Shown here: one piece after another, positions 24,415-41,327 of the stretch
Layout: each line of letters starts with the position of its first letter
How positions within the stretch are numbered: position 1 is the first letter of the stretch
DNA from: a virus
Lineage: Duplodnaviria; Caudoviricetes
Virus record (IMG/VR): IMGVR_UViG_3300027608_000043
Location: 1 to 53,095 of that record
Direction: 5' to 3' (one strand)
Length of the DNA: 53,095 nucleotides
Notes under the pieces: model-generated
The model's database searches: none
Seen by the model: the letters and a program-made list of their open reading frames with translations, nothing else
What the model was told of the DNA's origin: nothing
Position numbers and translations under genes: made by a program

Positions 24415-24441
24415 AGGGGGCTGCGCATCCTTATAACGCAG
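24415..24441 (+). ncRNA. Divergent pseudoknot-leader candidate (PK family)
   Basis: AGGG/UCCU and CUGCG/CGCAG helices with a UAUAA linker; ends 21 nt before ATG 24463, as the canonical copies do. Confidence 0.35.
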
Positions 24442-24462
24442 GTATTCCATCGCAATAGTACC

Positions 24463-24738
24463 ATGCAACTGAGCAAGCTAGAGGAGAAGGTTGTCGATTT
24501 TGGCGACAGGTGCCAGCAAGTGGCTAGATACCTGTGGAACGGGCGAAACGTTAGTATCACGGAGCGCCAGCTCCAGTGGTATGAGATGAGCCCACATCAG
24601 GTAATAGAAGAGTTACTTGAATCAGTACAAAGTTTAGAGTGCGAAGAAGCCTGTGAAGCAGGCTTTGAGCGTCAGTTTACAGTTTACTGTACCAAGCGAG
24701 GAGGAGTTTACTCCTTTAAAGCGAAGGTAATGAACTAA
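24463..24738 (+). CDS. Hypothetical early protein
   Basis: 91-aa ORF with the CCATCGCAAT motif 6 nt upstream. Confidence 0.6.
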   Translation: MQLSKLEEKVVDFGDRCQQVARYLWNGRNVSITERQLQWYEMSPHQVIEELLESVQSLECEEACEAGFERQFTVYCTKRGGVYSFKAKVMN

Positions 24739-24843
24739 GCTCCCGGATACCTAGTATAACCTAATCTTCTTAATGTTTTCTTAACGTTTGTAGATTAGGT
24801 CGTGCTAGAATCGCCTGTTTTCGTTCTCAAACGAATGTTGGGC

Positions 24844-24868
24844 CGTCAAGCTGGACGTTAAACGCAGC
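24844..24868 (+). ncRNA. PK-family pseudoknot, variant copy
   Basis: CGUC-AA-GCUG-GACG-UUAAAC-G-CAGC: same topology and UUAAAC linker. Confidence 0.6.
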
Positions 24869-24879
24869 AGACAACTCAG

Positions 24880-25179
24880 GTGGTAGATCACCAGGTGTCC
24901 TTGGCATCCACACTTCAGTGGTATAAGTCCAAGCTACTGGAGAACACCGTGATCAACACCACCGCTAGCGCCAACGTTACTGAGTTGGAGCTGACTGACA
25001 TTACTGAAATGTCATCGGCTGCAATGCAGGAAATGTTTGACGCGTCTCGACGGAAGTGTGGCGATAACGTAATGAGTAAGGTCCTTGACCTACTCGAGTA
25101 CGGACGTAGCCAAACACTTACTGCCGAACATCTCCAGGTCATCAAGTCCTACGTGGATGAGATGCTGGAGAACAACTGA
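24880..25179 (+). CDS. Hypothetical early protein
   Basis: 99-aa ORF; start uncertain. Confidence 0.55.
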   Translation: MVDHQVSLASTLQWYKSKLLENTVINTTASANVTELELTDITEMSSAAMQEMFDASRRKCGDNVMSKVLDLLEYGRSQTLTAEHLQVIKSYVDEMLENN

Positions 25180-25257
25180 ACTGTAGTACTCCACTTGTTG
25201 GAGGGCCAGGTGCAACTCCTGGCTTCAGTTATTACCCACAGCGGAGATGGGTACCGC
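25174..25257 (+). ncRNA. tRNA-like three-way junction plus pseudoknot, copy 1
   Basis: AACUGAA/UUCAGUU stem, CUCCA/UGGAG hairpin, GCCAGG-UGCAACU-CCUGGC T-arm-like hairpin, then UACCCA/UGGGUA with GCGG/CCGC. Confidence 0.7.
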
Positions 25258-25273
25258 ACACATGGAGTTATCC

Positions 25274-25585
25274 ATGGCTAACACTACCATCAACCTTGAA
25301 GATGGTTGGACACAACGCCCAGTTTTTACTGGTGTTTGGCATTTGGAGTATGTTGATCCAGTTGCTGGATTCGACATCTCCATCGTGACAGGACCACTAG
25401 GTTCTGGAGTGATGGGAGTTATTGCTCCAGGTAAGCCAACAACCTATGAAGCCTGGTTGCCAGGATTATCTAACCCCACAGGTTATTTAACCTTGGATGA
25501 AATACGTGGCGTTATTAAATATCTTCGAGAGAAGCATCATGATGATACGTATCGGTTGCTTTGTGAAGATGACATGACAAACTGA
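25274..25585 (+). CDS. Hypothetical early protein
   Basis: Likely start ATG 25274 (MANTT...) after GGAG. Confidence 0.6.
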   Translation: MANTTINLEDGWTQRPVFTGVWHLEYVDPVAGFDISIVTGPLGSGVMGVIAPGKPTTYEAWLPGLSNPTGYLTLDEIRGVIKYLREKHHDDTYRLLCEDDMTN

Positions 25586-25666
25586 GCTGTAGTACTGCAG
25601 CAATGCAGGGCCAGGTGCAACTCCTGGCTTCAGTCATTGCCCAGTCCGCAGGAGATGGGCACCTGC
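25580..25666 (+). ncRNA. tRNA-like three-way junction plus pseudoknot, copy 2
   Basis: ACUGAG/UUCAGU, CUGCA-GCAA-UGCAG, identical T-arm-like hairpin, then UGCCCA/UGGGCA with GCAGG/CCUGC; compensatory changes relative to copy 1. Confidence 0.7.
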
Positions 25667-25683
25667 ACAACATCAACTCGATT

Positions 25684-25872
25684 ATGTTTTCAGTTAATAA
25701 CGTAGCTGCATTCATATGTGGTTATGTGATTGTAATAGGTATTGGTTCGCTAATAGCAGTGCGTATGCTTGATAAAGCAACTGCACAACAATGCATTAAC
25801 CACGACTGGCCTACTGCTGCGCATAAAGTCCACATGGACTGGTGTACAGCTAACGGCTACGTAACTAAGTAA
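25684..25872 (+). CDS. Small membrane protein
   Basis: Likely start ATG 25684; TM helix then 'QQCINHDWP...HMDWC'. Confidence 0.55.
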   Translation: MFSVNNVAAFICGYVIVIGIGSLIAVRMLDKATAQQCINHDWPTAAHKVHMDWCTANGYVTK

Positions 25873-25896
25873 CTTCCTTCATCCAACCTTAAACTC

Positions 25897-26100
25897 ATGA
25901 AATCTGACTCATTGCTAACTCCCGTACTTGCCGTTGTCATGGGCACCGGCCTTGGCATGCTGCTTTCAGTAGCTGGCCAGAAGGTGCTCAATGCACACAC
26001 CCTAGAGAACTGTTGGCGTACACCTAATCGCCAACTTGTCCACCTTCGCTTGTTCCAAGGTGATGCATGGTACTGCGTAGACAAACGCTACCTTAACTAA
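25897..26100 (+). CDS. Small membrane protein
   Basis: TM helix then Cys-x...GDAWYC. Confidence 0.55.
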   Translation: MKSDSLLTPVLAVVMGTGLGMLLSVAGQKVLNAHTLENCWRTPNRQLVHLRLFQGDAWYCVDKRYLN

Positions 26101-26102
26101 CA

Positions 26103-26175
26103 GGACGAAACTAGGTTATAACATCATAACGATGCTGTAACCTGGTCGGCAGTTAATTACTGCCCTGATGAGTCC
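26103..26175 (+). ncRNA. Hammerhead ribozyme, type II
   Basis: GGAC-GAAA-[stem III CUAGGUUAUA/UGUAACCUGG]-UC-[stem I GGCAGU/ACUGCC]-CUGAUGA-GUCC; complete catalytic core, predicted cleavage after C26147. Confidence 0.93.
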
Positions 26176-26203
26176 ACATCAGAAACCCCATCGCATTATT
26201 ACC

Positions 26204-26416
26204 ATGAAGAACAATCACAAGATCTGCGGCAGGTACGTGGAACTAGACACGTATCGTCGCAGTAAAGATACTAGACAGTTAAAGCTAACCATATTAAATA
26301 TCATTACATTTATCGGAGCCGCTGCTGTGATGGCTATTGTCATAACAGCAGGGTTAGGCTCTGATATAACCACACCCTTGACTCCAACACAACATGAACA
26401 ACTCAAGAGAAGATGA
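26204..26416 (+). CDS. Small membrane protein
   Basis: Likely start ATG 26204 with the CCATCGCATT motif 6 nt upstream; one TM helix. Confidence 0.55.
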   Translation: MKNNHKICGRYVELDTYRRSKDTRQLKLTILNIITFIGAAAVMAIVITAGLGSDITTPLTPTQHEQLKRR

Positions 26417-26485
26417 CGTAATAGTCATCAGCATTACCATCATCTCAATCCTATTCACACTATTATTTCAACTCATTCTAGAAAC

Positions 26486-26848
26486 ATGGCATTACTTCCA
26501 GAGCAACAGCAAATCGCAACAGCAATCGGTTACGTCGCCCTTGATGGTGACGAAGGTACCTCACAGTACCCAGCCGATATTGACTTTCCGACCCCTCCTC
26601 CTAAAGGAGCAATCCCCTGCACAGGGAACGTCCGTAAAGATAAACACGGTACCCTCCGCTGCTATTGGATTCCAGCAGGAGGTAACTACACCTCCGAAGA
26701 GAAAGACGAGCTCCAAGGGTGGTACGACGTGCCAACCCTTGAAGACATCGAAGAGTACACGTTCGACGACACCTGCTATACCCCAGCAGGTGACGAAGTA
26801 GAACCTGATCATCCTGATAGCTGGCTAAGGATACTTAGCCTGGTATAA
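26486..26848 (+). CDS. Hypothetical phage protein
   Basis: C-terminal 'GDEVEPDHPDSWLRILSLV' motif typical of small phage proteins. Confidence 0.65.
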   Translation: MALLPEQQQIATAIGYVALDGDEGTSQYPADIDFPTPPPKGAIPCTGNVRKDKHGTLRCYWIPAGGNYTSEEKDELQGWYDVPTLEDIEEYTFDDTCYTPAGDEVEPDHPDSWLRILSLV

Positions 26849-26852
26849 CTAA

Positions 26853-26888
26853 ACCTGGGCACCCATCACCATGGGGTAAGTCCCAGGT
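26853..26888 (+). ncRNA. Internal-loop hairpin leader (CCUGGG-CA...GUAAGY-CCCAG), copy 1
   Basis: ACCUGGG/CCCAGGU plus CCCAU/AUGGG; 31 nt before ATG. Confidence 0.65.
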
Positions 26889-26919
26889 ATCCAACCAACC
26901 TTACTTTATTTTCAACATC

Positions 26920-27300
26920 ATGGCTTTTAAACCAACCTTCACTTTCCCACATTCAGAAGAAGACTTTGTAACAGTAATCTGTTTAAGAGTCGAGCCACGC
27001 TACGAAGAAGTTGTAATGTCACGCGCTGAATTTGAAAGGTTTAACAAAGTATTTAAACCTTGTGAAGAAGAAGGTTATTTTGCTGCTGATTTATTAGAAG
27101 AGTTTAAATTTAAAGATTGGAATACTATGAATCTAGATAGTCCATTAGATTCGTTTAAATATTATTTCAGAGCATACTCTGGTGATGTAACTTCAGGTTC
27201 TGATGACGTAATCTTTATGGATTCTAATCTGAGCTGGCAAAAACCATTCAAACGAAAATATCTTACATTACGTGGAGATGAAAGAATCATTAACACTTAG
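26920..27300 (+). CDS. Hypothetical protein
   Basis: 126-aa ORF. Confidence 0.6.
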   Translation: MAFKPTFTFPHSEEDFVTVICLRVEPRYEEVVMSRAEFERFNKVFKPCEEEGYFAADLLEEFKFKDWNTMNLDSPLDSFKYYFRAYSGDVTSGSDDVIFMDSNLSWQKPFKRKYLTLRGDERIINT

Positions 27301-27311
27301 ATTTAACCATC

Positions 27312-27470
27312 ATGACTTATCTAACTCATCAAAGCTACACTATTGATCAACTAGATGTATTAACAGATATTGCAGATGTACAAGAAGAAGCAATGCGTAA
27401 TTTCAGATGGTGTGATAGTCCAGAACTATTACCTGATGAAGTAACTTTTGTTTCAACAATTACTGAATAA
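27312..27470 (+). CDS. Small acidic protein (52 aa, MTYLTHQSY...)
   Basis: Translated by hand; fills the gap between two elements. Confidence 0.45.
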   Translation: MTYLTHQSYTIDQLDVLTDIADVQEEAMRNFRWCDSPELLPDEVTFVSTITE

Positions 27471-27480
27471 CAACTTAACA

Positions 27481-27516
27481 ACCTGGGCACCCATCACCAT
27501 GGGGTAAGCCCCAGTT
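27481..27516 (+). ncRNA. Internal-loop hairpin leader, copy 2
   Basis: Near-identical to 26853-26888; 29 nt before ATG. Confidence 0.65.
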
Positions 27517-27545
27517 ATTTAATCAAACCTTAACCTCCACCTAAC

Positions 27546-27845
27546 ATGACTACCACTGCGCCACGCATCAATGAATACACTGCTCTCGCGGGTATTCTCA
27601 AAGACCTCAAGGCTATCGTAGCCAGGGAAAGCAAGCGTCCACAAGGGTGTGAAGACCTCACACTCTCAATGCTTGCCCTTTTAGAAGAGGAGATCATTCC
27701 TCAACTAGAGAATGAGATCGAACATGATCTTAACTACGATCCAACACCTCAGCATTTATGGGATGCCACAGGGGGTGAAGCCCCAGTGACCATGGCAGAA
27801 ATGCATGCCTCTGCTTGGCAACAACACCAAGAAATGCATAGCTGA
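27546..27845 (+). CDS. Hypothetical phage protein
   Basis: 99-aa ORF, 'YDPTP...GGEAPVTMAEMH...AWQQH'. Confidence 0.65.
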   Translation: MTTTAPRINEYTALAGILKDLKAIVARESKRPQGCEDLTLSMLALLEEEIIPQLENEIEHDLNYDPTPQHLWDATGGEAPVTMAEMHASAWQQHQEMHS

Positions 27846-27850
27846 ATCAC

Positions 27851-27879
27851 ACGTCCTGAGTATGACGTTAAACTGCTCA
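27851..27879 (+). ncRNA. PK-family pseudoknot leader
   Basis: ACGUC-C-UGAGUA-U-GACG-UUAAAC-UGCUCA. Confidence 0.8.
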
Positions 27880-27900
27880 CACTCCATTGCAATTTAAGAC

Positions 27901-28311
27901 ATGTTCTTTTCCAATCCTTCCAAGTCTCATTGCTTTAACGGTCCGTTAGAGGTTACAGCAACAACAAGTCTCAAGAAGATTACTAAGACAATAGAAGATC
28001 GTATCGACGGTCTTATCTCCAAGCTAATCCGTAGCTTTGAGAAACAATATCCTGGTCGCTACGGCGACATGACCTTTGAGATTAACAAAGGTAACAAGTA
28101 TTACAAGATCATGGAAGTAACAAGTTCCATGGGTTGTATTACTAGTAGATCAGTCCATGCTTTTATTAGTAGACAGACAGGTGCTGTATACAAACCAGCA
28201 GGCTGGAAGTCTCCGGCTAAACATGTAAGATACAATCTACTAGACGATGCATCCTATGCAAAATGTCTAGAGCGAGCTGACTGGGCAGGCGGCTACCTAT
28301 ACATAAGGTAA
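27901..28311 (+). CDS. Conserved phage protein (KYYKI...SVHAF...TG.VYKPA.WK.PAKHVRYNL family)
   Basis: Motif recognised from cyanophage/T4-like hypothetical proteins. Confidence 0.7.
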   Translation: MFFSNPSKSHCFNGPLEVTATTSLKKITKTIEDRIDGLISKLIRSFEKQYPGRYGDMTFEINKGNKYYKIMEVTSSMGCITSRSVHAFISRQTGAVYKPAGWKSPAKHVRYNLLDDASYAKCLERADWAGGYLYIR

Positions 28312-28376
28312 TCCGTCATTTCCTGCATAGATCACTCGCCATCCACTACATTACTACTATCCCCTCCCTTCCCACC

Positions 28377-28688
28377 ATGACTACTACAGACGTAGGCGGT
28401 ACCCTCTTCGGTGCCGTCATCGAGTACAGGATCAAGGTCAATGACATCTGGCAAGATCGATCAGTCTTTCTGATCAACAAACAACACGCACTCACGTGGT
28501 TGTCAGAAGACTGGGTCAAGATGACTAAGAAGCATGATGCCATGCTTATGGATATTCGTATCGATTATCCTGTCTACTATCCAGACATCGATCCAATAGA
28601 TGTTTCTGGCTATGAAGATCCAACGAATGCAGACATGATCTACAGTGTAGATTTCAAGTCTGAAAAGATAAGCTACTCAGAAGTATAG
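28377..28688 (+). CDS. Hypothetical protein
   Basis: 103-aa ORF. Confidence 0.55.
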   Translation: MTTTDVGGTLFGAVIEYRIKVNDIWQDRSVFLINKQHALTWLSEDWVKMTKKHDAMLMDIRIDYPVYYPDIDPIDVSGYEDPTNADMIYSVDFKSEKISYSEV

Positions 28689-28694
28689 ATGTAA

Positions 28695-28723
28695 GTGTCC
28701 TGGGCACGACATTAAACTGCCCT
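28695..28723 (+). ncRNA. PK-family pseudoknot leader
   Basis: GUGUC/GACAU and GGGCA/UGCCC: compensatory changes in both helices. Confidence 0.8.
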
Positions 28724-28755
28724 ATACACTTAATCAATTCTTAACCTCCTCATCC

Positions 28756-28965
28756 ATGACTGACTCCAACATTCAAGTGCCTGATGCTTTAAGCATTCAA
28801 CGATTACAAGCTATGGAATTTGTTGCCAAGATGAGAGCAGCAGCTGACCGTGTCGGAGCTGGTTTCATTGGTGGCTTCATTGATCCAAACACTGGTGAAC
28901 AATTCACCATGACTAATATGAATCCTTCTATTACTCCTGACATTACCAAATTATTAGAAGACTAA
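28756..28965 (+). CDS. Hypothetical protein
   Basis: 69-aa ORF. Confidence 0.6.
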   Translation: MTDSNIQVPDALSIQRLQAMEFVAKMRAAADRVGAGFIGGFIDPNTGEQFTMTNMNPSITPDITKLLED

Positions 28966-29213
28966 TTAACAAGGGGCTGGATCGCATTAGATCCTAAGTC
29001 TGGTGCGGCCAGCTACCCCTCATTAACTGGGTCAGTCCCAGTGATGGCCTTCAACATCACAAGGTCCCATTCTGATTAAGCAGATGTTAATCAGAGGAAT
29101 ATACCAGATCAAACTCTGGATTTTAAATCACCGGCCAGTGAGGTCTCGAGAACCACACCAATTGTACACAACAATTGTCCAGGCCGTGTCTATTATCTCT
29201 ATCCCTAATTCAA

Positions 29214-29414: not shown

Positions 29415-29425
29415 TTAACTAGCTC

Positions 29426-29453
29426 CGTCCTGGACATGACGTTAAACTGTCTA
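29426..29453 (+). ncRNA. PK-family pseudoknot leader
   Basis: CGUC/GACG and UGGACA/UGUCUA. Confidence 0.8.
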
Positions 29454-29474
29454 CGTCCCATTGCAACTCAGCCC

Positions 29475-30580: not shown

Positions 30581-30586
30581 ACTTAT

Positions 30587-30614
30587 CGTCCTGAGTATGA
30601 CGTTAAACTGCTCA
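30587..30614 (+). ncRNA. PK-family pseudoknot leader
   Basis: CGUCCUGAGUAUGACGUUAAACUGCUCA. Confidence 0.8.
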
Positions 30615-32286: not shown

Positions 32287-32323
32287 CCTGGGCAGTCAGC
32301 GCCAACCTGACGTAAGCCCCAGG
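32287..32323 (+). ncRNA. Internal-loop hairpin leader, copy 3
   Basis: CCUGGG-CA-GUCAG...CUGAC-GUAAGC-CCCAGG; apical stem fully replaced but still paired. Confidence 0.7.
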
Positions 32324-33128: not shown

Positions 33129-33157
33129 ACGTCCTGAGTATGACGTTAAACTGCTTG
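33129..33157 (+). ncRNA. PK-family pseudoknot leader
   Basis: ACGUC/GACGU and UGAGUA/UGCUUG (G-U pairs). Confidence 0.78.
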
Positions 33158-33631: not shown

Positions 33632-33659
33632 CGTCCTGAGTATGACGTTAAACTACTCA
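33632..33659 (+). ncRNA. PK-family pseudoknot leader
   Basis: UGAGUA/UACUCA fully Watson-Crick. Confidence 0.8.
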
Positions 33660-34873: not shown

Positions 34874-37460
34874 GAAAGCTTATGTATTTGATTTAGAAAC
34901 CAACGGGCTTTACAATGATGTCAATGAGATCTACTGTCTTGTCATCCATGATATCAAGGGAGAACTTACTACTACTTATGGGCCTGATTCTATTGCTGCT
35001 GGTCTTGAGCATCTGGCTAAAGCTGACATTCTCATAGGGCATAACATCATCTTCTATGACATCCCAGTCATAAGAAAACTTTATCCTTTCTATACCTTTA
35101 GAGCAGCTCAGCTTATCGACACGCTCGTTTGTACCAGGCTTATATGGCCCAAGGAATTATTACTTGATGAAGACAATGAAGCTGACTATGATATACCTCC
35201 TAGGCTACGGGGCTCTGCCTCACTTAAAGCCTGGGGGTATCGTCTATTAGATAACAAAATTGAGTTCAAAGATTTCTCTGCTTACTCAGAAGAGATGGCG
35301 GCATACTGTAGACAAGACGTACAAGTAACTCACAAGCTATTCAATCATGTACAAAAACAGAACTACTCTCAGACAGCGCTTGATCTCGAGCATGCATTTG
35401 CTAGGGCAATTAACGATCAGATTATTGTGGGCTTTCCGTTTGATGTGGATAGGTCTCTTGATCTGGTTGATAACCTTAGACAAAAGAAAGAAGAGTTGGA
35501 CCAGATACTGCAACAAATGTTCCCACCCATACCAGTGGAATCCACCTTCATCCCCAAAATAAACAATGAGAAACGAGGCTTTGTTAAAGGCGTCCCCTTT
35601 ATTAGACGAACAGAACAGAAGTTTAACCCAGGATCTCGTCAGCAAATTGTGGAGCGCTTACATAATAAGTACGCTTGGGTTCCAGAGAAAACAACAGCAA
35701 AAGGAAATCCAATCGTTAATGATGATGTGCTGGAAAGCTTATCTTTTCCTGAAGCCAAAACCTTAGTTGAATACCAGCTCATTAAGAAAAGATTAGGACA
35801 GATTGCAGATGGACAGAATGCTTGGCTGAAGTTATTCAATCACGAAGACGGCAAGATGCACGGTGATGTTGTCACGAATGGTTGCATCACTGGTCGATGT
35901 GCACACAAGAATCCAAACATGGCTCAGGTCCCAGGGGTCTATAGCCCTTATGGTAAGGAATGCCGTGCTTTGTTCTATGCACCTAAAGATTATTTACTTA
36001 TGGGTGTAGATGCAAAAGCATTAGAGCTTAGATGTTTAGCAGGGTACTTAGCTCGTTGGGATAAAGGAGAATACGCTGCTCTAGTAGTAGATCCTGAGGT
36101 TGATATTCATACATACAATCAGGAAAGATTTGGTGTGAGTACCAGGGATATAAGCAAGCGTCTTCTCTATGCTTGTGTTCCTACTGATATAACAACAGTG
36201 CTTACAAAAGAAGGATGGAAAACATATGATGAATTAAAGGTTGGTCAATTAGTTTTAACTTACAACGAAGAAAAAGAAATAAAAGAATGGAAGCCTATTT
36301 TTGAAATCATACCTGAACATGAAGATGATGTTTGGCAAATGCAACATAATCATTCATTCAAAGTACAAGCTACCGCTGACCATCGGTGGTATGTAAAGAA
36401 ACGTAAACGTAATGGAAATGTATCTTGCGGTTGGAGAACAGGTAAAAATTATATGGTGTCTAAAGTTGAAACAACAACAGAAATAAATACTGAATCTAAT
36501 ATTATTGTTAATGCCCTATTAGTTGAACCTGAGTCTTTGCCAATTGACATTGATTGGAAGTGGCGAAAATATGGTACAGATTGGACTAAAGTTATTTTAC
36601 AAATGAACCAAGCCCAACGTAAAGCTTGGCTATCTGGATTCATGATTGCTGATGGATTTCAATCATGTAAACCAAATCAAAAAGAGAAATGGCATTGGAC
36701 ACAAATACGTAATGAACATTATGAAGCAGCTTTAGTTGCTTCTTATCTAGAATTTCCAGGAGTAATCCATGTTGCTAAGCCATCACTCAATGCTAGTGGT
36801 ACTACACAAATGCATGTGAGCATTGCAAATAAAGGTCATGTTACTGGACAAAAATTACAAAAGACTTATATAGGAAAGAAGAATGTATTTTGTATACGTA
36901 CAGAAAATAAATCTTTTGTTATGCGCCAAGGGGATTGTATTACCATTACAGGAAATTGTTTGTATGGTGCAGGCTCTTTAAAGATGGGAGGGATTATTGA
37001 TCCGAATGAAAAAGATGAAGCAGTTCTACGTAAACTAGGAAGTACTGCAATTAATTTATTCCTTGAAGGTGTGCCTGCACTTAAATCATTAAAGGAAGAA
37101 ATCAATTGTTACTTATCAGAACGTGATTATCTTATTGGTTTAGATCGCAGACAATTATATTGTCGTTCAGCATTCAAAGGATTGAATGTATTGTTGCAAT
37201 CTGCTGGTGCCATCCTTATGAAACAAGTTGTTATTAATCTGAATACTGCATTAGATAAACTTGGTTTGGTATATGGAGAGGACTGGATGCAGCTCGCTAT
37301 GATCCATGATGAAATCCAACTAGCTTGCTTACCAGAACATAAAGATCTGGTTATGACGCAAGCACTAGATGCTTTCCCTGCTGCTCAAAAGTTCTTTAAG
37401 TTTGCTTGCAAGATTGAAGGCGACGCTAAGATCGGTTATACTTGGGCCGACACCCACTAG
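34812..37460 (+). CDS. polA: Family A DNA polymerase (3'-5' exo + pol), intein-containing
   Basis: Exo I FDLETNG, GHNI..YD, YC.QDV; motif A DAKALELR, motif B R..SKRLLYA|CLYGAG, motif C IHDEIQ; T7-like. Confidence 0.95.
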   Translation: MTQPYQSTTYLSKTNNCLGNKKAYVFDLETNGLYNDVNEIYCLVIHDIKGELTTTYGPDSIAAGLEHLAKADILIGHNIIFYDIPVIRKLYPFYTFRAAQLIDTLVCTRLIWPKELLLDEDNEADYDIPPRLRGSASLKAWGYRLLDNKIEFKDFSAYSEEMAAYCRQDVQVTHKLFNHVQKQNYSQTALDLEHAFARAINDQIIVGFPFDVDRSLDLVDNLRQKKEELDQILQQMFPPIPVESTFIPKINNEKRGFVKGVPFIRRTEQKFNPGSRQQIVERLHNKYAWVPEKTTAKGNPIVNDDVLESLSFPEAKTLVEYQLIKKRLGQIADGQNAWLKLFNHEDGKMHGDVVTNGCITGRCAHKNPNMAQVPGVYSPYGKECRALFYAPKDYLLMGVDAKALELRCLAGYLARWDKGEYAALVVDPEVDIHTYNQERFGVSTRDISKRLLYACVPTDITTVLTKEGWKTYDELKVGQLVLTYNEEKEIKEWKPIFEIIPEHEDDVWQMQHNHSFKVQATADHRWYVKKRKRNGNVSCGWRTGKNYMVSKVETTTEINTESNIIVNALLVEPESLPIDIDWKWRKYGTDWTKVILQMNQAQRKAWLSGFMIADGFQSCKPNQKEKWHWTQIRNEHYEAALVASYLEFPGVIHVAKPSLNASGTTQMHVSIANKGHVTGQKLQKTYIGKKNVFCIRTENKSFVMRQGDCITITGNCLYGAGSLKMGGIIDPNEKDEAVLRKLGSTAINLFLEGVPALKSLKEEINCYLSERDYLIGLDRRQLYCRSAFKGLNVLLQSAGAILMKQVVINLNTALDKLGLVYGEDWMQLAMIHDEIQLACLPEHKDLVMTQALDAFPAAQKFFKFACKIEGDAKIGYTWADTH
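36174..36956 (+). mobile_element. Intein (261 aa; C1 ... GN / C+1) with a degenerate LAGLIDADG region
   Basis: CVPTDITTVLTKEGW block A, ATADHRW block B, VFCI block F, ITGN end; single WLSGFMIADG motif. Confidence 0.88.
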
Positions 37461-37465
37461 ACTTC

Positions 37466-37493
37466 CGTCCTAGGCATGACGTTAAACTGTCTT
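37466..37493 (+). ncRNA. PK-family pseudoknot leader
   Basis: CGUC/GACG and AGGCA/UGUCU. Confidence 0.78.
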
Positions 37494-37512
37494 TCACTTC
37501 ACTTCTGATCCA

Positions 37513-38301
37513 ATGAACTTCACTAGCCTTTGCGCCCAAACAACTCAAGAACCTACTGAGGTGTATACATCGGCCACTAGTACTGCTGTACGGTGTCCAT
37601 TGCTCTTGCCTCCAGTGGGTAATAAAGCTCCTACTGCAATCGAACTTACTCTCTATGGTAAGAATTCTGAACGCTTTCTTAAGACTCCTAAGAATTCACA
37701 ACTCTATGTACATGGAGCCAAGCTTAAGTACGATACAACGACACGTACTTTTTCTTTACAGGGAGGAAACATTGCTATAGTCAATACTTCTTTCCCTATC
37801 TTTAATACAGTAATCCTTAGTGGACGCTGCATCAAAGATATTGATAAAGAAGATGAGCGTAGCTTTAAAACAACTGCTGATGGTTTAATGATTGCTAATC
37901 AAACATTATTAGTTAGCTCTGGTAGAAACCAAGCAGACTTATTTAACTTTTATGCAATCAACTCAGCTGATGATAAGTTTAATCAAGCTGAACTCATGGT
38001 CAACTTTACCAGGAAAGGAACAGGTCTTACCATACAAGGTCGACTTGTTACTGATACCTGGTCAGATAAAGAAACTAAAGAACGCAAATCAAATACTAAG
38101 ATTCAACTAATCTCAATGACCTTAGGTCCTAAGCCCCAGGCTTCTGATACTCCTAGAGAATCAACAGGTACTAAAGCGCCAAGCTTATGGGGTGGTGCCA
38201 CAGTAGAAGAGATTGCTGAACCATGGGGACAGAACGTAGGTGACAATCTACCTACTCTGCCTGCTCCCTTTAGTAAGACTGAAGAGTTCCCTCCTTTTTA
38301 A
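37513..38301 (+). CDS. ssb: Single-stranded DNA-binding protein with two OB-like repeats
   Basis: NTVILSGR...KGTGLTIQGRLVTDTW.DKET.E..S and an acidic C-terminal tail ending EEFPPF. Confidence 0.8.
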   Translation: MNFTSLCAQTTQEPTEVYTSATSTAVRCPLLLPPVGNKAPTAIELTLYGKNSERFLKTPKNSQLYVHGAKLKYDTTTRTFSLQGGNIAIVNTSFPIFNTVILSGRCIKDIDKEDERSFKTTADGLMIANQTLLVSSGRNQADLFNFYAINSADDKFNQAELMVNFTRKGTGLTIQGRLVTDTWSDKETKERKSNTKIQLISMTLGPKPQASDTPRESTGTKAPSLWGGATVEEIAEPWGQNVGDNLPTLPAPFSKTEEFPPF

Positions 38302-38317
38302 TCTTCTATTAAACCTA

Positions 38318-38345
38318 CGTCCTAAGCATGACGCTAAACTGCTTA
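38318..38345 (+). ncRNA. PK-family pseudoknot leader
   Basis: CGUC/GACG and UAAGCA/UGCUUA. Confidence 0.8.
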
Positions 38346-38366
38346 CGTCCAACCTCAGCACATCTC

Positions 38367-39434
38367 ATGTCTGAAACTTTGTTCGACATCCCAACCCAAG
38401 CACCTCCTACGAAATCACTTCCGATCATGACTATGAAGAAAACTTCTGGCTCCGCTCTGGCAACACGTGGCCTTGACTCATTTAAAATATTCCAATCCAA
38501 GGAATATATTACTGGGTACCAAAACTTTGTTACTATTCAACCCTTAAACAAATCTAAAACAAGAGGTTGGTTTATACGTAACACAGACCTTGATACATGT
38601 AAATGGCATGCTACAGAAGATCAGTTTGCTAAAGGATCAGTCATCTGGAACTACAAGCAAACATTCGGAATGGCACCTAACACTTCTGTAGAGGAAGGTC
38701 TTAATTTTACTGAACCACGTATTCAGATTTTATTACGTTCACCTCTTATGGTTGAGGAAACCACAGGGATGAAACAAACGATTGGCACATTCGATAACCC
38801 TGAGGTTAAAACCAAGTGGGATAACGATAAGCTAGCTGCTGATCTAGCTAATAGTAAAGGTGAGATGTACAAACGTAAGTACAGTGTACGTACAAAGTAT
38901 CTTGTTTTTATTCTTAAAGAAGATAACCGTCGTGCCCATGATTTACCAATGGTCCTTACTCTGAAAGGATTGAACGGTACTGATGCAGCAGAGAAGATCA
39001 AGATGTATGAGAAAGAAATGTCCAAGTGTTTAAGTAAGGCACTTGATACTGAAGTACCACTAGTATTTAACGAGAAGTTTTATGCTACTACTGTATTCAC
39101 ACCTAGCTTGGTTAATGATATGCGTGGTGCTAATAACGTTGAGATATGTGCTATTGAAGGGTTTAATATCCCTGACTATGCCACACAAGAAGCAGCAGTT
39201 GAATCACTGAGTGACATGAGTATTCCTGATGAAGATCGAGAATCAACTTGGAAGTATCAAGAACTATTCCAAGATTATATTATGCAACACTCAAAACAAG
39301 ACGCAGCTAAATTAGGTGGTGCCTATGGTATCAAAGATGGTATTGAGATACTACCTGAATGTCGTATAACAGATGTAGCTGCACTACCCAGTGCAAAAGA
39401 CCCTGTTACAGGTGAGGATGATTCTCTGCTTTAA
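38367..39434 (+). CDS. Hypothetical replication/recombination-region protein
   Basis: Likely start ATG 38367 (MSETLF); follows SSB. Confidence 0.6.
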   Translation: MSETLFDIPTQAPPTKSLPIMTMKKTSGSALATRGLDSFKIFQSKEYITGYQNFVTIQPLNKSKTRGWFIRNTDLDTCKWHATEDQFAKGSVIWNYKQTFGMAPNTSVEEGLNFTEPRIQILLRSPLMVEETTGMKQTIGTFDNPEVKTKWDNDKLAADLANSKGEMYKRKYSVRTKYLVFILKEDNRRAHDLPMVLTLKGLNGTDAAEKIKMYEKEMSKCLSKALDTEVPLVFNEKFYATTVFTPSLVNDMRGANNVEICAIEGFNIPDYATQEAAVESLSDMSIPDEDRESTWKYQELFQDYIMQHSKQDAAKLGGAYGIKDGIEILPECRITDVAALPSAKDPVTGEDDSLL

Positions 39435-39691
39435 CCTTCTAGGTTAACCTCAGGATTAGCAAGCTCACTATCATCAATCTTTAAATTCTTGATAGTGAGC
39501 AATTCTTTTGCTAGTCCCTTGATAACACCTTGTCTTTGTGTACACAATCCCAACAGTAATGTTGAGTATTGTTTAAGGGTATCAACAGAAGTTGTTTCAT
39601 TTATTGCACGTTGGATTCTTTCTTTCCAAAACAGATCATCTAACCCTGGATCTAATTCTAATTTACCCAAGGGAATCAATTTGTATTCCAT
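39431..39691 (-). CDS. Hypothetical protein
   Basis: 86-aa ORF convergent with the preceding gene. Confidence 0.5.
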   Translation of the reverse strand: MEYKLIPLGKLELDPGLDDLFWKERIQRAINETTSVDTLKQYSTLLLGLCTQRQGVIKGLAKELLTIKNLKIDDSELANPEVNLEG

Positions 39692-39722
39692 AGTTTAAAC
39701 TATTTTAATTAATGTTACTACC

Positions 39723-39920
39723 ATGAATTCCAGATTGAAAGCAGCTACTAAACATGTAGCACCCTATGCAGCTATCGGTACCTTAGCTGCTCTTGCCCTA
39801 GCTAACCCTATTAGCTGGGGCATGCTTGCCTATGGTTTGTTACGTATTGGTAAGACTGCTTACGATACTGCTCCAAGGAATGCTATTATTCCTAACGAAC
39901 AGGATGACCTGTTCATCTAA
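39723..39920 (+). CDS. Small membrane protein
   Basis: 65 aa, hydrophobic. Confidence 0.55.
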   Translation: MNSRLKAATKHVAPYAAIGTLAALALANPISWGMLAYGLLRIGKTAYDTAPRNAIIPNEQDDLFI

Positions 39921-39939
39921 TCCCATCTCAACTCACCCA

Positions 39940-40908
39940 ATGAAAACTCTTATTCAAGATCAACTTAATTCCGCTCAAAAACAAATCTATTCTATTAGTA
40001 ATCTAGGAAGAGCATTCCCTGATTTCAAGGACACTGCTATTGCTGGCATCTACTTACGTGATGATTCCGTTGTTGTTGTATACCAAGATGGAGCAGAGCA
40101 GCTCTATCCTAAACAGAATGTTATTGCTGCGTACCAAGAGTTTACCTTTCGTTTAAAAGACTTCTTCTCTTACCTTGGCCCTAACTATAGGGGTCCAAGT
40201 ATGTGGCATAACAACTCTTATATTATGTTTAAGGGTTGGCATTACCATCATCAGCTAGGAGCTAAGAGTGATCAGGCTTTATTTCAAAGGGAATGGATAG
40301 ATAAATTTATTTATCTCAAAGATAAAGAAAAATTAAAAGCTTTATTGCAAGGTGAGCATACAGATCTGGGTCATCTAGTAGCACCTGATGGTTTCTTTGA
40401 ACCTGATGAAGAAGTTAACTTAAACTCTTCCTTAGAAGATACTGTTGCTAAACAAGAACAAAAGATTAAGGAACCTTATTGTTCATGTGGTTCATTCCAG
40501 CGGCAGCTACTAAACCTATCTGATTTCCAGCAGGAGATTGAAGGGTACAAGCCTCAGTGTATACATCTAACTTGGTTCAAGAAGTATCGTGATCTATTGG
40601 TAAAGCGGACTATAGTGCGTGATCAGTACAGAGGTTCTTCCCCTGATAACGCTTGTGCCTGGTGGTATGCCCCACCAGCAGACCACACATCGAAAGGTCG
40701 ATTCCTTGTGTTGTATACCAAATCTGGTTCAATGGCTCCTTTGTCCCACTGGAGGACCTATAAACCTGATGAACATTACACAGCAGATGATGTCTGGACT
40801 CTATTTGACGCTATGCTAGACGCAAGCTTTGTGCCATTCCCTGGTACAAGCCTATCCCAACTCTCTCGTAGAACCAATGGAAACACAAACGGTTGTCCAA
40901 TTGCATGA
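39940..40908 (+). CDS. SWIM zinc-finger protein
   Basis: YCSCGSF...QCIH (CxC...CxH); likely start ATG 39940. Confidence 0.65.
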   Translation: MKTLIQDQLNSAQKQIYSISNLGRAFPDFKDTAIAGIYLRDDSVVVVYQDGAEQLYPKQNVIAAYQEFTFRLKDFFSYLGPNYRGPSMWHNNSYIMFKGWHYHHQLGAKSDQALFQREWIDKFIYLKDKEKLKALLQGEHTDLGHLVAPDGFFEPDEEVNLNSSLEDTVAKQEQKIKEPYCSCGSFQRQLLNLSDFQQEIEGYKPQCIHLTWFKKYRDLLVKRTIVRDQYRGSSPDNACAWWYAPPADHTSKGRFLVLYTKSGSMAPLSHWRTYKPDEHYTADDVWTLFDAMLDASFVPFPGTSLSQLSRRTNGNTNGCPIA

Positions 40909-41143
40909 CCTTGTTGAGCAAGGTAAATTCAAAATTGAATGTTTAAATTTTAAAGAAGAAGATACAGGAACACCATCTATAAGAGTTAGCTGGGATGAAA
41001 CAGAACCAGCTCTTGATTGGTGGACAAGTAAAACAAAAGAAGAACAAGAAGCTTTTATATATAAAGTAGTAGCACACACTGCATACTCATTAGATCCAGA
41101 TAAAGATGATGAAGAAGATAGAGTGTTTGAAAGTAATCTTTAA
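40877..41143 (+). CDS. Hypothetical protein
   Basis: Likely start ATG 40877; 'I.VSWDETEP...W' motif. Confidence 0.55.
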   Translation: METQTVVQLHDLVEQGKFKIECLNFKEEDTGTPSIRVSWDETEPALDWWTSKTKEEQEAFIYKVVAHTAYSLDPDKDDEEDRVFESNL

Positions 41144-41148
41144 TTTAC

Positions 41149-41176
41149 CGTCCTGAGTATGACGTAAAACTACTCA
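41149..41176 (+). ncRNA. PK-family pseudoknot leader
   Basis: CGUCCUGAGUAUGACGUAAAACUACUCA. Confidence 0.8.
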
Positions 41177-41198
41177 TCAATTCCATCTCTTTATTATC

Positions 41199-41327
41199 AT
41201 GTTTGAATTCTTTTCTTCTGTTGTTTTGCCTTGCGTTTCTAGTATTGCAAAAGATTTGTTGTTTGCACTTAGTGCAATAGCAATCACTTGGATATTGAAT
41301 AAGATCAAGATGCAATTTGCATCATGA
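41199..41327 (+). CDS. Small membrane protein (42 aa, MFEFFSSVVLP...)
   Basis: Translated by hand; ATG lies 22 nt after a PK element, the family spacing. Confidence 0.55.
   Translation: MFEFFSSVVLPCVSSIAKDLLFALSAIAITWILNKIKMQFAS

What the first reader, a model, noticed from the sequence alone, without database searches (positions are those of the whole stretch)
24415..41201. Early arm built from gene cassettes, many fronted by one of several interchangeable structured-RNA leader modules
Seen: many intergenic gaps from 24.4 to 41.2 kb hold one of four unrelated folded modules (PK pseudoknot x9-11, tRNA-like plus second pseudoknot x2, internal-loop hairpin x3, hammerhead x1). Each starts 0-17 nt after, or overlaps, the upstream stop (except the two PK variants). 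Each is followed by a G-poor, mostly SD-less spacer of class-specific length: PK 19-22 nt (one 32), hairpin 29-31 nt, second pseudoknot 16-17 nt. I saw none of these in the - strand structural arm, which uses SD sequences and -10 boxes instead. Inference: a phage RNA-level expression system in which a long early transcript is cut (hammerhead, tRNA-like RNase P/Z substrates, RNase III-like hairpins) and cistrons receive a folded 5' module that stabilises them or recruits ribosomes without SD. The repeats could also drive cassette shuffling by recombination. I do not recognise a described system with this combination.
Basis: partly seen in the sequence, partly recalled or inferred. Interest (0 to 1): 0.9.

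Follow-up and report, generated by a model that had tools for sequence, protein, structure and literature searches.

The report
Coremin-like RNA knots punctuating phage genes
Between the early genes of this freshwater cyanophage sit interchangeable folded RNA modules, and the commonest one closely matches a plant-virus RNA knot known to stop RNA-degrading enzymes, a kind of element not so far described in phages or bacteria.

Summary
The + strand arm from 24.4 to 41.2 kb carries 9 canonical copies of a 28-nt H-type pseudoknot and one conserved variant. It also carries 3 internal-loop hairpins, 2 tRNA-like modules and 1 type II hammerhead. All lie in intergenic gaps and none is on the - strand.

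The pseudoknot is real and widespread. A pattern scan found it in at least 116 IMG/VR contigs, and 74 of those share no protein with this phage. It also occurs in bacterial genomes. Stem 2 covaries strongly.

No Rfam family matches it. In sequence and architecture it matches the plant-virus 'coremin' Xrn1-resistant RNA: the same GUC/GAC hairpin, loop-first C, loop-end A-D and GUUAAACU spacer. It differs by a longer loop and a Watson-Crick stem 2 in place of coremin's second hairpin.

It starts 5 nt after the upstream stop codon (the mode) and 19-22 nt before the next ATG.

At one junction, relatives carry a hairpin, a genuine tRNA-Leu, or both. Cassettes present only in the window are flanked by duplicated modules.

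Best reading (about 0.45): intercistronic RNA punctuation, with the knot acting as a directional roadblock that sets or protects RNA ends. Function is untested, because no RNA-end data could be had.

The parts
27852..27879 (+). PK copy 1: CGUC-C-UGAGUA-U-GACG-UUAAAC-UGCUCA. It starts 6 nt after the stop codon and ends 21 nt before ATG 27901 (DUF7717 protein).
28696..28723 (+). PK copy 2. Stem 1 is UGUC/GACA and stem 2 is GGGCA/UGCCC. It ends 32 nt before ATG 28756.
29426..29453 (+). PK copy 3. Stem 2 is UGGACA/UGUCUA. It ends 21 nt before ATG 29475.
30587..30614 (+). PK copy 4, 22 nt before ATG 30637 (547-aa PcfJ-like protein). A PK stands at this junction in 18 of 20 relatives by a strict pattern; one of the other two (S-EIVl, L245) has a variant copy.
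33130..33157 (+). PK copy 5, before g33180. This cassette has no orthologue in the relatives held.
33632..33659 (+). PK copy 6, before g33682 (GP88 family). Relatives carry this PK type or a type with the stem flipped to GGAC/GUCC.
37466..37493 (+). PK copy 7, 5 nt after the DNA polymerase stop codon and 19 nt before the SSB gene. Present in 9 of 11 relatives; the other 2 have a longer-loop version.
38318..38345 (+). PK copy 8 (spacer CUAAAC), before g38367 (DUF5895).
41149..41176 (+). PK copy 9 (spacer UAAAAC), before the 42-aa ORF at 41199.
24844..24868 (+). PK variant with a 6-nt loop: CGUC-AAGCUG-GACG-UUAAAC-G-CAGC. The same variant occurs in L013 and L066.
24416..24441 (+). Hairpin CUGCG-loop-CGCAG. 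A similar hairpin lies upstream of a related gene in S-EIVl. No knot is supported.
25180..25257 (+). tRNA-like module 1: acceptor-like stem, a hairpin, a T-arm-like hairpin (CCAGG-UGCAACU-CCUGG), then a second knot. The upstream stop codon TGA abuts it.
25585..25666 (+). tRNA-like module 2. Same architecture, with compensatory changes in hairpin 1 and in the second knot.
26103..26175 (+). Type II hammerhead: GGAC-GAAA-stem III-GUC | stem I (GGCAG/CUGCC)-CUGAUGA-GUCC. The predicted cut is 3' of C26147.
26854..26887 (+). Internal-loop hairpin 1: CCUGGG-CA-CCCAU-CACC-AUGGG-GUAAGU-CCCAGG.
27482..27515 (+). Internal-loop hairpin 2, a duplicate 628 nt downstream of hairpin 1 with a weakened outer stem.
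32287..32323 (+). Internal-loop hairpin 3. The inner stem is wholly different (GUCAG/CUGAC). At this junction relatives carry the hairpin, tRNA-Leu(UAA), or both.

Best explanation
The early (+ strand) arm is transcribed into long RNAs whose cistrons are separated by autonomous folded 'punctuation' modules. Each module sets or protects an RNA end between two genes.

The commonest module is a 28-nt H-type pseudoknot, a phage and bacterial version of the coremin exoribonuclease-resistant RNA. Inferred mechanism: once the upstream RNA is cut, a 5'-to-3' enzyme runs into the knot and stalls just 5' of stem 1. In cyanobacteria that enzyme would be RNase J, or RNase E sensing a 5' end. The downstream cistron is left with a knot-capped 5' end and its G-poor 20-nt leader, so decay of one cistron does not spread to the next.

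The other modules reach the same result by other routes. The hammerhead cuts itself. tRNA-Leu in relatives, and the tRNA-like module here, would be cut by host tRNA-processing enzymes. The hairpin's route is unknown.

The knot sits as close to both reading frames as ribosomes allow without melting it.

As a by-product, the repeated modules serve as recombination points for gaining and losing gene cassettes.

Shown here: the structures, their conservation, their placement, their interchangeability and their likeness to coremin. Inferred: nuclease blocking, cleavage and the effect on expression.
For: Structure.
- In 117 distinct PK sequences, 93.7% of cells are paired, against 84.4% in shuffles (0 of 500 reach it).
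- 131 cells show a change on both sides, against 42 expected. Five of the 6 stem 2 pairs covary. Slid controls give 22-50% paired.

Spread.
139 of 147 occurrences have 5 or 6 of 6 stem 2 pairs.
- 74 of the 116 loci share no protein with the window.

Likeness to coremin (GUCCGAAGACGUUAAACUAC, from the Methods of PMC10520033).
- With a 4-nt loop insertion, 17 of 20 positions equal the phage consensus.
- In 52 copies found by synteny rather than by the full pattern: loop-first C 52/52, loop-penultimate A 52/52, loop-last A/U 51/52, AAA invariant (this was required by the search), C18 50/52, U19 51/52. The two U's after stem 1 vary.
- This mirrors coremin mutagenesis. The loop needs Y...AD with C disallowed at the last position; U13U14 are tolerant; A16 to A20 are essential.
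- Coremins with 7- and 8-nt loops still block Xrn1. Coremins also occur in intergenic regions and at stop codons, and Xrn1 stops 1 nt before hairpin 1.
- A laboratory-selected coremin with a Watson-Crick loop-spacer helix is Xrn1-resistant.
- Two other classes of such RNAs block Bacillus RNase J1 in vitro and act as general roadblocks.
- Cyanobacteria encode essential RNase E and RNase J (abstract of PMC8682795 in the listing).

Placement.
- The PK is on the sense strand. 123 of 141 contexts have an ORF end within 120 nt upstream, against 73 for the antisense control.
- The distance from stop codon to PK peaks at exactly 5 nt (33 contexts). Only 6 contexts are below 5 nt. The distance from PK to start codon is 19-22 nt in 44 of 101.

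Equivalence with processing elements.
- At the g32355 junction, relatives carry the hairpin, tRNA-Leu(UAA) (found in 11 of 16 loci scanned), or both.
- A hammerhead with a complete core holds the same kind of position. Perreault et al. 2011 read hammerhead-flanked prophage genes as transcript processing and saw cleavage in vitro (passages).

Tandem PKs occur in L015, L046, L095 and L114, as tandem coremins do in plant viruses (figure legends).
Against: - Nothing functional was tested. The only RNA-library data are assembled contigs, which cannot show RNA ends or prove transcription.
- The phage loop has U or C at position 2 (45 U, 7 C of 52), where coremin needs G; C at that position abolished resistance.
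- Coremin's second hairpin is absent. Position 20 is mostly G rather than the essential A.
- Frameshifting knots of similar size do not block Xrn1, so the fold alone does not predict resistance.
- Several contexts fit a downstream-protecting cap poorly. In 47 bacterial loci a tiny ORF ends at or inside the knot, so ribosomes must melt it.
- Some copies are followed at once by a T-run (8 of 127 viral, 15 of 99 genomic) or by a terminator (L095).
- In phages unrelated to the window the distance to the next start codon is not fixed.
- In bacteria much mRNA decay begins with internal cuts that a 5' cap cannot prevent (general knowledge).
- A sample of 400 genomes from each of two phyla was too sparse to relate the motif to RNase J (2 and 0 extra hits).
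Confidence: 0.45

Rival explanations
1. The knot acts on ribosomes, not nucleases. Placed at the mRNA entrance of a ribosome that sits on the stop codon, it would uncouple neighbouring cistrons. It could do so by blocking post-termination sliding or re-initiation, or by tuning termination or pausing. Each gene would then be translated only by fresh SD-independent initiation on the G-poor leader.
For: - The sharpest constraint is the distance from the upstream stop codon. The mode is 5 nt, and 64 of 123 contexts lie at 5-9 nt. The constraint also holds in unrelated phages (24 of 56 at 3-10 nt).
- This is the spacing used by frameshift-stimulating knots (recalled general knowledge).
- Coremin stalls scanning ribosomes and stimulates -1 frameshifting (abstracts and passages).
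- In 47 bacterial loci the stop codon of a tiny conserved ORF lies at or inside the knot.
Against: - The 5-nt minimum is equally what one expects for any structure that must stay folded next to a translated ORF in a compact genome.
- The knot also occurs directly 5' of tRNA genes (L102, L173), where no nearby ORF end is evident, and just after T-runs.
- Hammerheads and tRNAs at equivalent junctions point to RNA cutting rather than ribosome control.
Confidence: 0.2
2. The knot is a binding site for a conserved protein or a small ligand. It would be a shared operator that lets one factor control many early genes at once, in the manner of a translational repressor site or a small riboswitch aptamer.
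For: - Unpaired nucleotides are invariant: loop-first C, loop A, and AAACU.
- In six Erysipelotrichaceae and Bacilli loci the knot is enclosed by an outer helix that pairs with the SD of the next gene, an architecture like a riboswitch expression platform.
- The fold class (short stem, A-rich strand, loop-tail helix) is that of small knot aptamers (recalled).
Against: - No Rfam riboswitch or other family matches, either at gathering or at E up to 10.
- The genes downstream are unrelated to one another, and the hosts range from cyanophages to Omnitrophota and Firmicutes. No common ligand logic is apparent.
- In the phage the knot ends about 20 nt before the start codon, with no expression platform.
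- The same conserved nucleotides work in plant viruses without any protein.
Confidence: 0.1
3. The knot is a new small self-cleaving ribozyme, or a substrate mimic cut by a host enzyme such as RNase P. It would belong with the hammerhead and tRNAs as a true cleavage site rather than a roadblock.
For: - It holds the same intercistronic position as a hammerhead and as tRNA genes in this phage group.
- Self-cleaving ribozymes cluster in phage DNA. A twister lies near a hammerhead in L289.
- The hairpin-plus-loop knot with an A-rich linker recalls the 5' half of the pistol ribozyme (recalled, not tested by alignment).
Against: - 28 nt with 10 base pairs leaves little room for an active site.
- No Rfam ribozyme model (pistol, twister, hatchet and others) matches at E up to 10.
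- The closest sequence relative, coremin, has been studied as uncleaved RNA that stalls Xrn1.
- No NCCA-like tail follows stem 2.
Confidence: 0.08
4. The repeats act as DNA: promoters of a phage polymerase, recombination or packaging sites. On this view the RNA folds are incidental.
For: - They are dispersed intergenic repeats confined to one strand and one arm.
- Cassette differences between relatives end at modules.
- Consensus sigma-70 promoters are not enriched in the arm (37 found, 47 expected), so other promoter types may be in use.
Against: - Compensatory changes keep stem 2 paired while its sequence varies freely. That is selection on a single-stranded fold.
- The element lies on the coding strand of its neighbours in unrelated phages.
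- The same motif works as RNA in plant RNA viruses.
- Recombination at repeats is expected as a side effect of any dispersed repeat.
Confidence: 0.05

Closest known systems
Coremin motif / xrRNA_C of plant and fungal RNA viruses (BNYVV RNA3, cucumoviruses and others; Dilweg, Gultyaev and Olsthoorn 2019, PMC6546385; Dilweg et al. 2023, PMC10520033)
   Same: - Hairpin 1 with a G-U-C/G-A-C stem.
- The first loop nucleotide is a pyrimidine (C), and the loop ends in A followed by A/U/G.
- The spacer G-UUAAACU follows the stem directly.
- Natural variation falls on the two U's that mutagenesis found tolerant.
- It occurs in intergenic regions and next to stop codons, and sometimes in tandem.
- 17 of 20 coremin letters equal the phage consensus once a 4-nt loop insertion is allowed.
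   Different: - The host is a DNA phage or a bacterium, not a eukaryotic RNA virus.
- The loop is 7-10 nt (mostly 8), with U or C rather than G at position 2.
- A 5-6 bp Watson-Crick stem 2 starts at U19. It replaces both the non-canonical loop-spacer contact and the obligatory second hairpin.
- Nuclease resistance is untested.
xrRNA_WCC, the 'Watson-Crick coremin' selected in the laboratory, with one natural candidate in a picorna-like virus (Dilweg et al. 2023, PMC10321173)
   Same: - The coremin hairpin and spacer are combined with a canonical antiparallel loop-spacer helix.
- The first loop nucleotide acts as loop 1 and cannot be changed (passages).
   Different: - Its stem 2 is only about 3 bp, formed by a 4-nt loop with spacer positions 18-20.
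- The phage version keeps C18 unpaired and has a 6-bp stem 2.
Type II hammerhead ribozymes flanking genes in prophages and phage contigs (Perreault et al. 2011, PMC3088659)
   Same: - The window's hammerhead has the full core and the three junction pairs required by that study.
- It sits between a stop codon and the next start, as do the examples I printed from the 119 or more IMG/VR loci found with a related pattern.
- That paper already proposes processing of long phage transcripts into gene-length mRNAs.
   Different: - Here the hammerhead is one of at least five module types used at equivalent junctions.
- Only 1 of 119 hammerhead loci also carries the PK pattern.
- Rfam models do not reach threshold on this copy, nor on 15 comparison loci.
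tRNA punctuation of polycistronic RNA (mitochondria) and tRNA genes embedded in phage operons
   Same: In 11 of 16 relatives scanned, a tRNA-Leu(UAA) lies in the early arm. Where it was mapped, it lies between a stop codon and the g32355 orthologue, about 25 nt before its ATG.
   Different: - The window itself has no tRNA. It has only a hairpin at that junction, and two tRNA-like three-helix modules elsewhere.
- Processing was not shown.

Membership tests
Coremin / xrRNA_C | Hairpin 1 of 3-4 bp (G-U-C/G-A-C) whose pairing, not identity, matters for base pairs 2-3 | tested here: met
   GUC/GAC is present in all 117 pattern-found copies, but the pattern fixed it. Among 52 copies found by synteny, 9 have the flipped GGAC/GUCC stem and the outer pair covaries.
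Coremin / xrRNA_C | Loop consensus YGAD / YGNNAD (first Y, second G, penultimate A, last not C) | tested here: not met
   First position C in 52/52, penultimate A in 52/52, last A/U in 51/52. The second position is U (45) or C (7), never G.
Coremin / xrRNA_C | Conserved 10-nt spacer GUUAAACUAC, with A16 to A20 essential and U13U14 tolerant | tested here: inconclusive
   AAA is invariant (the search required it). C18 is present in 50/52 and U19 in 51/52, and the U's vary (7 C, 1 A). Position 20 is G in 42, C in 7 and A in 3, because it pairs in stem 2.
Coremin / xrRNA_C | A second hairpin directly after the spacer | tested here: not met
   After the spacer comes the 3' strand of stem 2 and then a G-poor unstructured leader. 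No conserved hairpin follows.
Coremin / xrRNA_C | Stalls a 5'-3' exoribonuclease 1 nt before hairpin 1 | not testable with these tools
   RNA-library data were available only as contigs.
xrRNA_WCC (Watson-Crick coremin) | [quoted passage not shown] | tested here: met
   Five of 6 stem 2 pairs covary and 91% of cells are paired. The first loop C is invariant. The helix is longer and shifted by one position compared with the published one.
Hammerhead ribozyme, type II | Core CUGANGA, GAAA and a non-G nucleotide at the cleavage site, with pairs 10.1-11.1, 1.1-2.1 and 15.1-16.1; stems I and III closed, stem II open | tested here: met
   All are present at 26103-26175. This was the only hit of a strict descriptor in all loci then held. 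The rejection criteria are from Perreault et al..
Hammerhead ribozyme, type II | Reaches the Rfam gathering score | tested here: not met
   The best clan hit is 19.9 bits against a threshold of 48.5. The models also missed every pattern-found hammerhead in 15 comparison loci, so this says little.
Hammerhead ribozyme, type II | Self-cleavage | not testable with these tools
   The lowest-energy fold contains a competing hairpin, CUGAUG/CAUCAG, that would sequester the core.
tRNA | Cloverleaf recognised by a tRNA finder | tested here: not met
   ARAGORN finds 0 tRNAs in the window, and Rfam tRNA does not hit. The module has an acceptor-like stem, one hairpin and a T-arm-like hairpin. Its loop UGCAACU resembles UGCAAGU in the tRNA-Leu of relatives.
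Known riboswitch and ribozyme knots (preQ1, SAM-II/V, guanidine-III, pistol and others, as held in Rfam 15) | Match to the family's covariance model | tested here: not met
   No hit on any PK copy at gathering or at E up to 10. Twelve PK-bearing loci from other phages and bacteria gave only tRNAs.

The most novel reading that the evidence does not exclude
The 28-nt knot would be the first exoribonuclease-resistant RNA class of the prokaryotic world, and it would be the same motif as plant-virus coremin. On this reading it is a protein-independent mechanical roadblock shared by eukaryotic RNA viruses, DNA phages of many hosts and bacterial operons. Phages of the S-EIV1 group would use it, interchangeably with ribozymes and tRNAs, to cut a long early transcript into separately stable messages. 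The natural Watson-Crick stem 2 would also settle the disputed pseudoknot model of coremin.
Probability: 0.35. Interest if true: 0.9.

Novelty: new variant of a known kind. Interest (0 to 1): 0.8.

Why it matters
- Exoribonuclease-resistant RNAs are known only from eukaryotic viruses. A bacterial and phage class would open the question of how 5'-3' decay (RNase J, 5'-end-dependent RNase E) is countered in prokaryotes.
- The phage copies supply hundreds of natural variants with clear covariation. These bear directly on the unsolved three-dimensional model of coremin.
- A 28-nt, protein-free insulator between cistrons would be a useful synthetic-biology part.
- S-EIVl is a cultured phage-host pair that carries the motif, so the idea can be tested directly.
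- The interchangeable use of a knot, a hairpin, a tRNA, a tRNA-like fold and a hammerhead at the same junctions offers a natural experiment on what intercistronic ribozymes in phages are for. That question has been open since 2011.

Tried and rejected
Rfam. The whole window at gathering gave 0 hits. Positions 24000-42000 at E up to 10 gave 12 weak hits. None lay on the PKs, hairpins or tRNA-like modules, and only a sub-threshold hammerhead hit was relevant.

ARAGORN found 0 tRNAs.

Ideas considered from recall and dropped for lack of any model match: a preQ1-type or other small knot riboswitch, and a pistol-like ribozyme. I did not align them, because I hold no tool-given sequences of those families.

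RNA evidence. One run search and one laying of four RNA-library runs gave only assembled contigs of relatives at small shares. They show no starts, ends, strand or proof of transcription. Parts without cover mean nothing. I use only two bridging contigs (the skips 26898->27563 and 36171->36993) and two contigs that match a module alone.

Relating the motif to RNase J. I took 400 genomes from the phylum of an Enterococcus hit and 400 from the phylum of an alphaproteobacterial hit. They gave 2 and 0 further matches, which is too sparse for any conclusion.

The loose PK descriptor has a background of about 3 hits per window-sized Markov sequence at score 8 or more, against 12 observed. I therefore discard its hits at 49683(-), 23193(-) and the hits of score 7. 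The one at 49683 lies in coding sequence.

The 24415 'PK variant' has no knot pairing and a fold z of +0.56.

Sigma-70 promoter words are not enriched, so I could not define transcription units.

The tiny bacterial ORF has no Pfam or NCBIfam match.

Literature. Searches for the motif's letters, 'exoribonuclease-resistant' with 'bacteriophage', 'xrRNA' with 'RNase J' and 'cyanophage' with 'pseudoknot' found no description of this knot in phages or bacteria. The three coremin papers do not contain 'phage' or 'bacteri' (for PMC6546385 I read parts 1 and 2 of 4). Fremin et al. 2023 (PMC10690425) list over ten thousand unnamed candidate RNAs from IMG/VR in supplementary tables. I could not open these, and the knot may be among them.

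Full report
What the window is. The 53,095-base window is a whole IMG/VR virus record, rated 67% complete. Its only named relative in the phage collection is Synechococcus phage S-EIVl (KJ410740), a freshwater isolate from a high arctic lake. That match covers 6% of the query at 75.8% identity, over the DNA polymerase and SSB genes. The stretch from 24.4 to 41.2 kb is a + strand block of about 30 mostly small genes. It includes a family A DNA polymerase with an inserted element, an SSB, a GP88-family protein, a DUF5895 protein and a PcfJ-like protein. That gene content fits a replication or early arm.

The observation.
- A 28-nt element, CGUC-C-UGAGUA-U-GACG-UUAAAC-UGCUCA, occurs 9 times, always on the + strand and always between genes. 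Shuffles give 0.05 matches expected.
- A tenth copy at 24844 has a 6-nt loop. The same variant occurs in two relatives.
- The proposed eleventh copy at 24415 is only a hairpin.
- The PKs start 5-16 nt after the upstream stop codon and end 19-22 nt (once 32 nt) before the next ATG.
- The leaders contain 6% G, against 20% in the region.
- SD-like words precede 3 of 30 early starts, against 8 of 22 starts on the - strand arm.

The pseudoknot is a real and widespread RNA structure.
- I scanned IMG/VR with only the 16 conserved letters fixed.
- The five loop positions and five tail positions that the pattern left free (the sixth pair was set by it) form 5 or 6 of 6 stem 2 pairs in 139 of 147 occurrences.
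- On an alignment of 117 distinct copies, 93.7% of cells pair. Five of the 6 stem 2 pairs show compensatory change. 131 cells changed on both sides, against 42 in shuffles, and sliding the partner strand drops pairing to 22-50%.
- The invariance of the GUC/GAC stem and the spacer in that alignment is partly due to the search pattern.
- I therefore also collected 52 copies by synteny, upstream of orthologues of window genes in 26 relatives. There the first loop nucleotide is C in 52 of 52, the penultimate loop nucleotide is A in 52 of 52, the last is A or U in 51, C18 is present in 50 and U19 in 51. The two U's after stem 1 vary, and the stem is flipped to GGAC/GUCC in 9.
- Of the 116 IMG/VR loci, 39 are relatives of the window and 74 share no detectable protein with it.
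- The same pattern also occurs in bacterial genomes. About a tenth look like chance, as expected for a 16-letter pattern in 596 billion bases.

What it resembles.
- No Rfam family matches any copy, in the window or in 12 other loci.
- A full-text search for the spacer letters led to the 'coremin' motif of plant RNA viruses, GUCCGAAGACGUUAAACUAC (Methods of PMC10520033).
- Coremin is a 3-4 bp hairpin (GUC/GAC) with a YGAD loop (YGNNAD if the loop has 6 nt). A conserved 10-nt spacer follows, in which A16 to A20 are essential and U13U14 are tolerant, and then a variable second hairpin. Coremin halts the 5'-3' exonuclease Xrn1 one nucleotide before the first hairpin (PMC6546385, parts 1-2 read; PMC10520033 Results part 1).
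- Coremins with 7- and 8-nt loops still work. Coremins occur in intergenic regions and at stop codons.
- A laboratory screen produced a 'Watson-Crick coremin', in which the loop pairs canonically with the end of the spacer. The authors argue that coremin itself is a non-canonical knot (PMC10321173, passages).
- The phage element has the same stem, the same first loop C, the same A-D loop end and the same G-UUAAACU. Its natural variation falls where coremin tolerates change.
- It differs in four ways. Its loop is longer. It has U or C instead of G at loop position 2. It has a 5-6 bp Watson-Crick stem 2. It has no second hairpin.
- I therefore call it a new variant that works like coremin, not a member in the strict sense. 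Two defining features fail and the defining activity is untested.
- None of the coremin papers mentions phages or bacteria. My other searches found no such report.

Placement.
- In 141 non-redundant contexts, an ORF of at least 50 codons ends within 120 nt upstream on the same strand in 123 cases, against 73 for the opposite strand.
- The gap from stop codon to knot peaks at exactly 5 nt (33 cases), then 6 nt (13) and 7 nt (8). Only 6 cases are below 5 nt.
- In the S-EIV1-like group the gap from knot to start codon is 19-22 nt (39 of 64), or 28 nt, and SD words are absent (63 of 64).
- In unrelated phages the stop-proximal rule persists (24 of 56 at 3-10 nt). There the distance to the next start varies, and 20 of 37 starts have SD words.
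It is an autonomous element packed as close to the preceding ORF as a terminating ribosome would allow. That a ribosome covers roughly a dozen nucleotides 3' of its A site is general knowledge, not tested here.
- Other contexts are mixed. There are tandem copies (L015, L046, L095, L114). Some copies lie directly 5' of a tRNA (L102, L173). Some are followed by a T-run (8 of 127 viral, 15 of 99 genomic) or lie just after one (5 and 12).

The other modules.
- Hairpin. Its consensus is YUGG-CA-[variable stem-loop]-GUAAGY-CCAR. A descriptor finds 10 copies in 0.97 Mb of this phage group and none in reversed sequence. Inner and outer stems differ between copies but stay complementary, although the descriptor required pairing.
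- tRNA-like module. It recurs in three other viral contigs. Across the 5 copies, 99% of cells pair and 3 pairs show compensatory change. Its third hairpin resembles the T-arm of the tRNA-Leu of relatives. ARAGORN does not call it a tRNA.
- Hammerhead. It has every core nucleotide, the GUC cleavage triplet and the three junction pairs that Perreault et al. required. Its fold z-score is -6.7. Rfam scores it below threshold, but Rfam also missed all pattern-found type II hammerheads in 15 other phage loci. Such hammerheads are common right after stop codons in viral contigs (at least 119 loci).

Interchangeability and cassettes. Synteny maps of 26 relatives show a conserved gene order with modules at fixed junctions but of varying type.
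- Before the g32355 orthologue stands tRNA-Leu(UAA) alone (8 loci), hairpin plus tRNA-Leu (6 loci), or hairpin alone (the window and L006). ARAGORN confirms the tRNA in 11 of 16 loci scanned. Where both are present, the hairpin ends 2 nt before the tRNA.
- Before g33682 stands one or the other PK type.
- Before g27546 stands a hairpin, a PK or nothing.
- Genes with no orthologue in any relative I held (g26920 and g27312; g33180 and g33433) sit between two copies of the same module. One contig of a relative skips precisely from the first hairpin copy to the sequence after the second.

How it most likely works. The modules share a position and an orientation. Two of them (hammerhead, tRNA) are elements that generate RNA ends, and a third (the knot) matches an element that stops an exonuclease. 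The simplest common function is to divide a long transcript into units with defined, protected ends.
- For the knot I infer a directional roadblock. Flavivirus and dianthovirus resistant RNAs block Bacillus RNase J1 in vitro and are regarded as general mechanical blocks (passages of 10.1101/262683).
- Cyanobacteria have essential RNase J and RNase E (abstract in the listing).
- I give this reading about 0.45.
- The main rival (0.2) is a ribosome-directed role at the stop codon. It is favoured by the 5-nt rule, by coremin's effects on ribosomes, and by 47 bacterial loci in which a tiny conserved ORF ends at or inside the knot.
- Binding of a factor, cleavage, and DNA-level roles are less likely, for the reasons given under the rival explanations.

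Limits.
- No experiment or RNA-end data underlie the functional claims.
- The PK alignment is partly ascertained by pattern.
- The hairpin and the second knot have few independent copies.

Noticed in passing
L166 minus strand 3943-3860, and 46 other genome-contig loci (for example L140, L193, L231): A tiny conserved ORF of about 18-27 codons (..YMLRPVAHCKEGC.. in Omnitrophota and Planctomycetes; MKRFMIPRxAHC(T/S)GGC.. in Desulfobacterales). It has its own SD and often a promoter with a palindromic operator. It ends just before, at or inside the same knot; in L166 the TAA of GUUAAAC is the in-frame stop codon. It has no Pfam or NCBIfam match.
   Followed up: partly
L132, L133, L187, L189, L230, L240 (Erysipelotrichaceae and Bacilli genomes): The knot is enclosed by an outer helix (ggtattacct ... 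agaggtaatac) whose 3' strand contains the SD of the next gene. The layout resembles a riboswitch. These copies have only 4-5 of 6 stem 2 pairs.
   Followed up: no
window 28966-29215: A 250-nt intergenic region that folds far better than shuffles (-79.8 kcal/mol, z -5.0) and has no Rfam match. Contigs from three RNA-library runs lie on it. It may be an unknown non-coding RNA.
   Followed up: partly
window 36172-36992, inside the DNA polymerase gene 34812-37460: An AT-rich insert splits the family A polymerase: Pfam and PHROG matches stop near residue 456 and resume near 702-718. One contig of a relative joins 36171 to 36993 with 38 other letters in between. This is consistent with an intein or similar insertion that some relatives lack.
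   Followed up: partly
window leaders at 24444, 26185, 27882, 29457, 30618, 32336, 33163, 33665 (about 10-14 nt before the ATG): A shared leader word CCAYYGCAA (CCAUUGCAA, CCAUCGCAA, CCACUGCAA, CCAACUGCAA). It follows PK, hammerhead, hairpin and variant modules alike, and recurs in relatives. It may be an SD-independent initiation signal.
   Followed up: no
L004, L013, L016, L029, L042, L050, L060, L077, L089, L101 upstream of g28756 orthologues: At this junction relatives carry a further conserved element, TTGAC-N(5-12)-GGTAGACT, often inside a hairpin loop, where the window has a PK. It could be an extended -10 type promoter or another RNA module.
   Followed up: no
window 26094-26100 with 26153-26159, and 26165-26182: The stem I loop of the hammerhead (UUAAUUA) can pair 6 of 7 with UAACUAA just 5' of stem II, a word that includes the upstream stop codon. 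This may be a tertiary knot. Downstream, CAUCAG can pair with the core CUGAUG, forming a competing hairpin seen in the lowest-energy fold.
   Followed up: partly
L289 745-803 (minus strand): A type-P5 twister ribozyme (45.2 bits, above the gathering score) lies about 650 nt from a type II hammerhead in an unrelated viral contig.
   Followed up: no
L095 4614-4802: Three tandem knot units spaced about 75 nt apart. The first two are each followed at once by a terminator-like hairpin and a T-run. They may be a set of small stable RNAs.
   Followed up: no
window 24238-24262 and 32734-32768: Strong intrinsic-terminator-like hairpins on the + strand. The first lies just before the early arm (the weak isrK hit is this terminator). 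The second lies after g32355, inside the arm.
   Followed up: no
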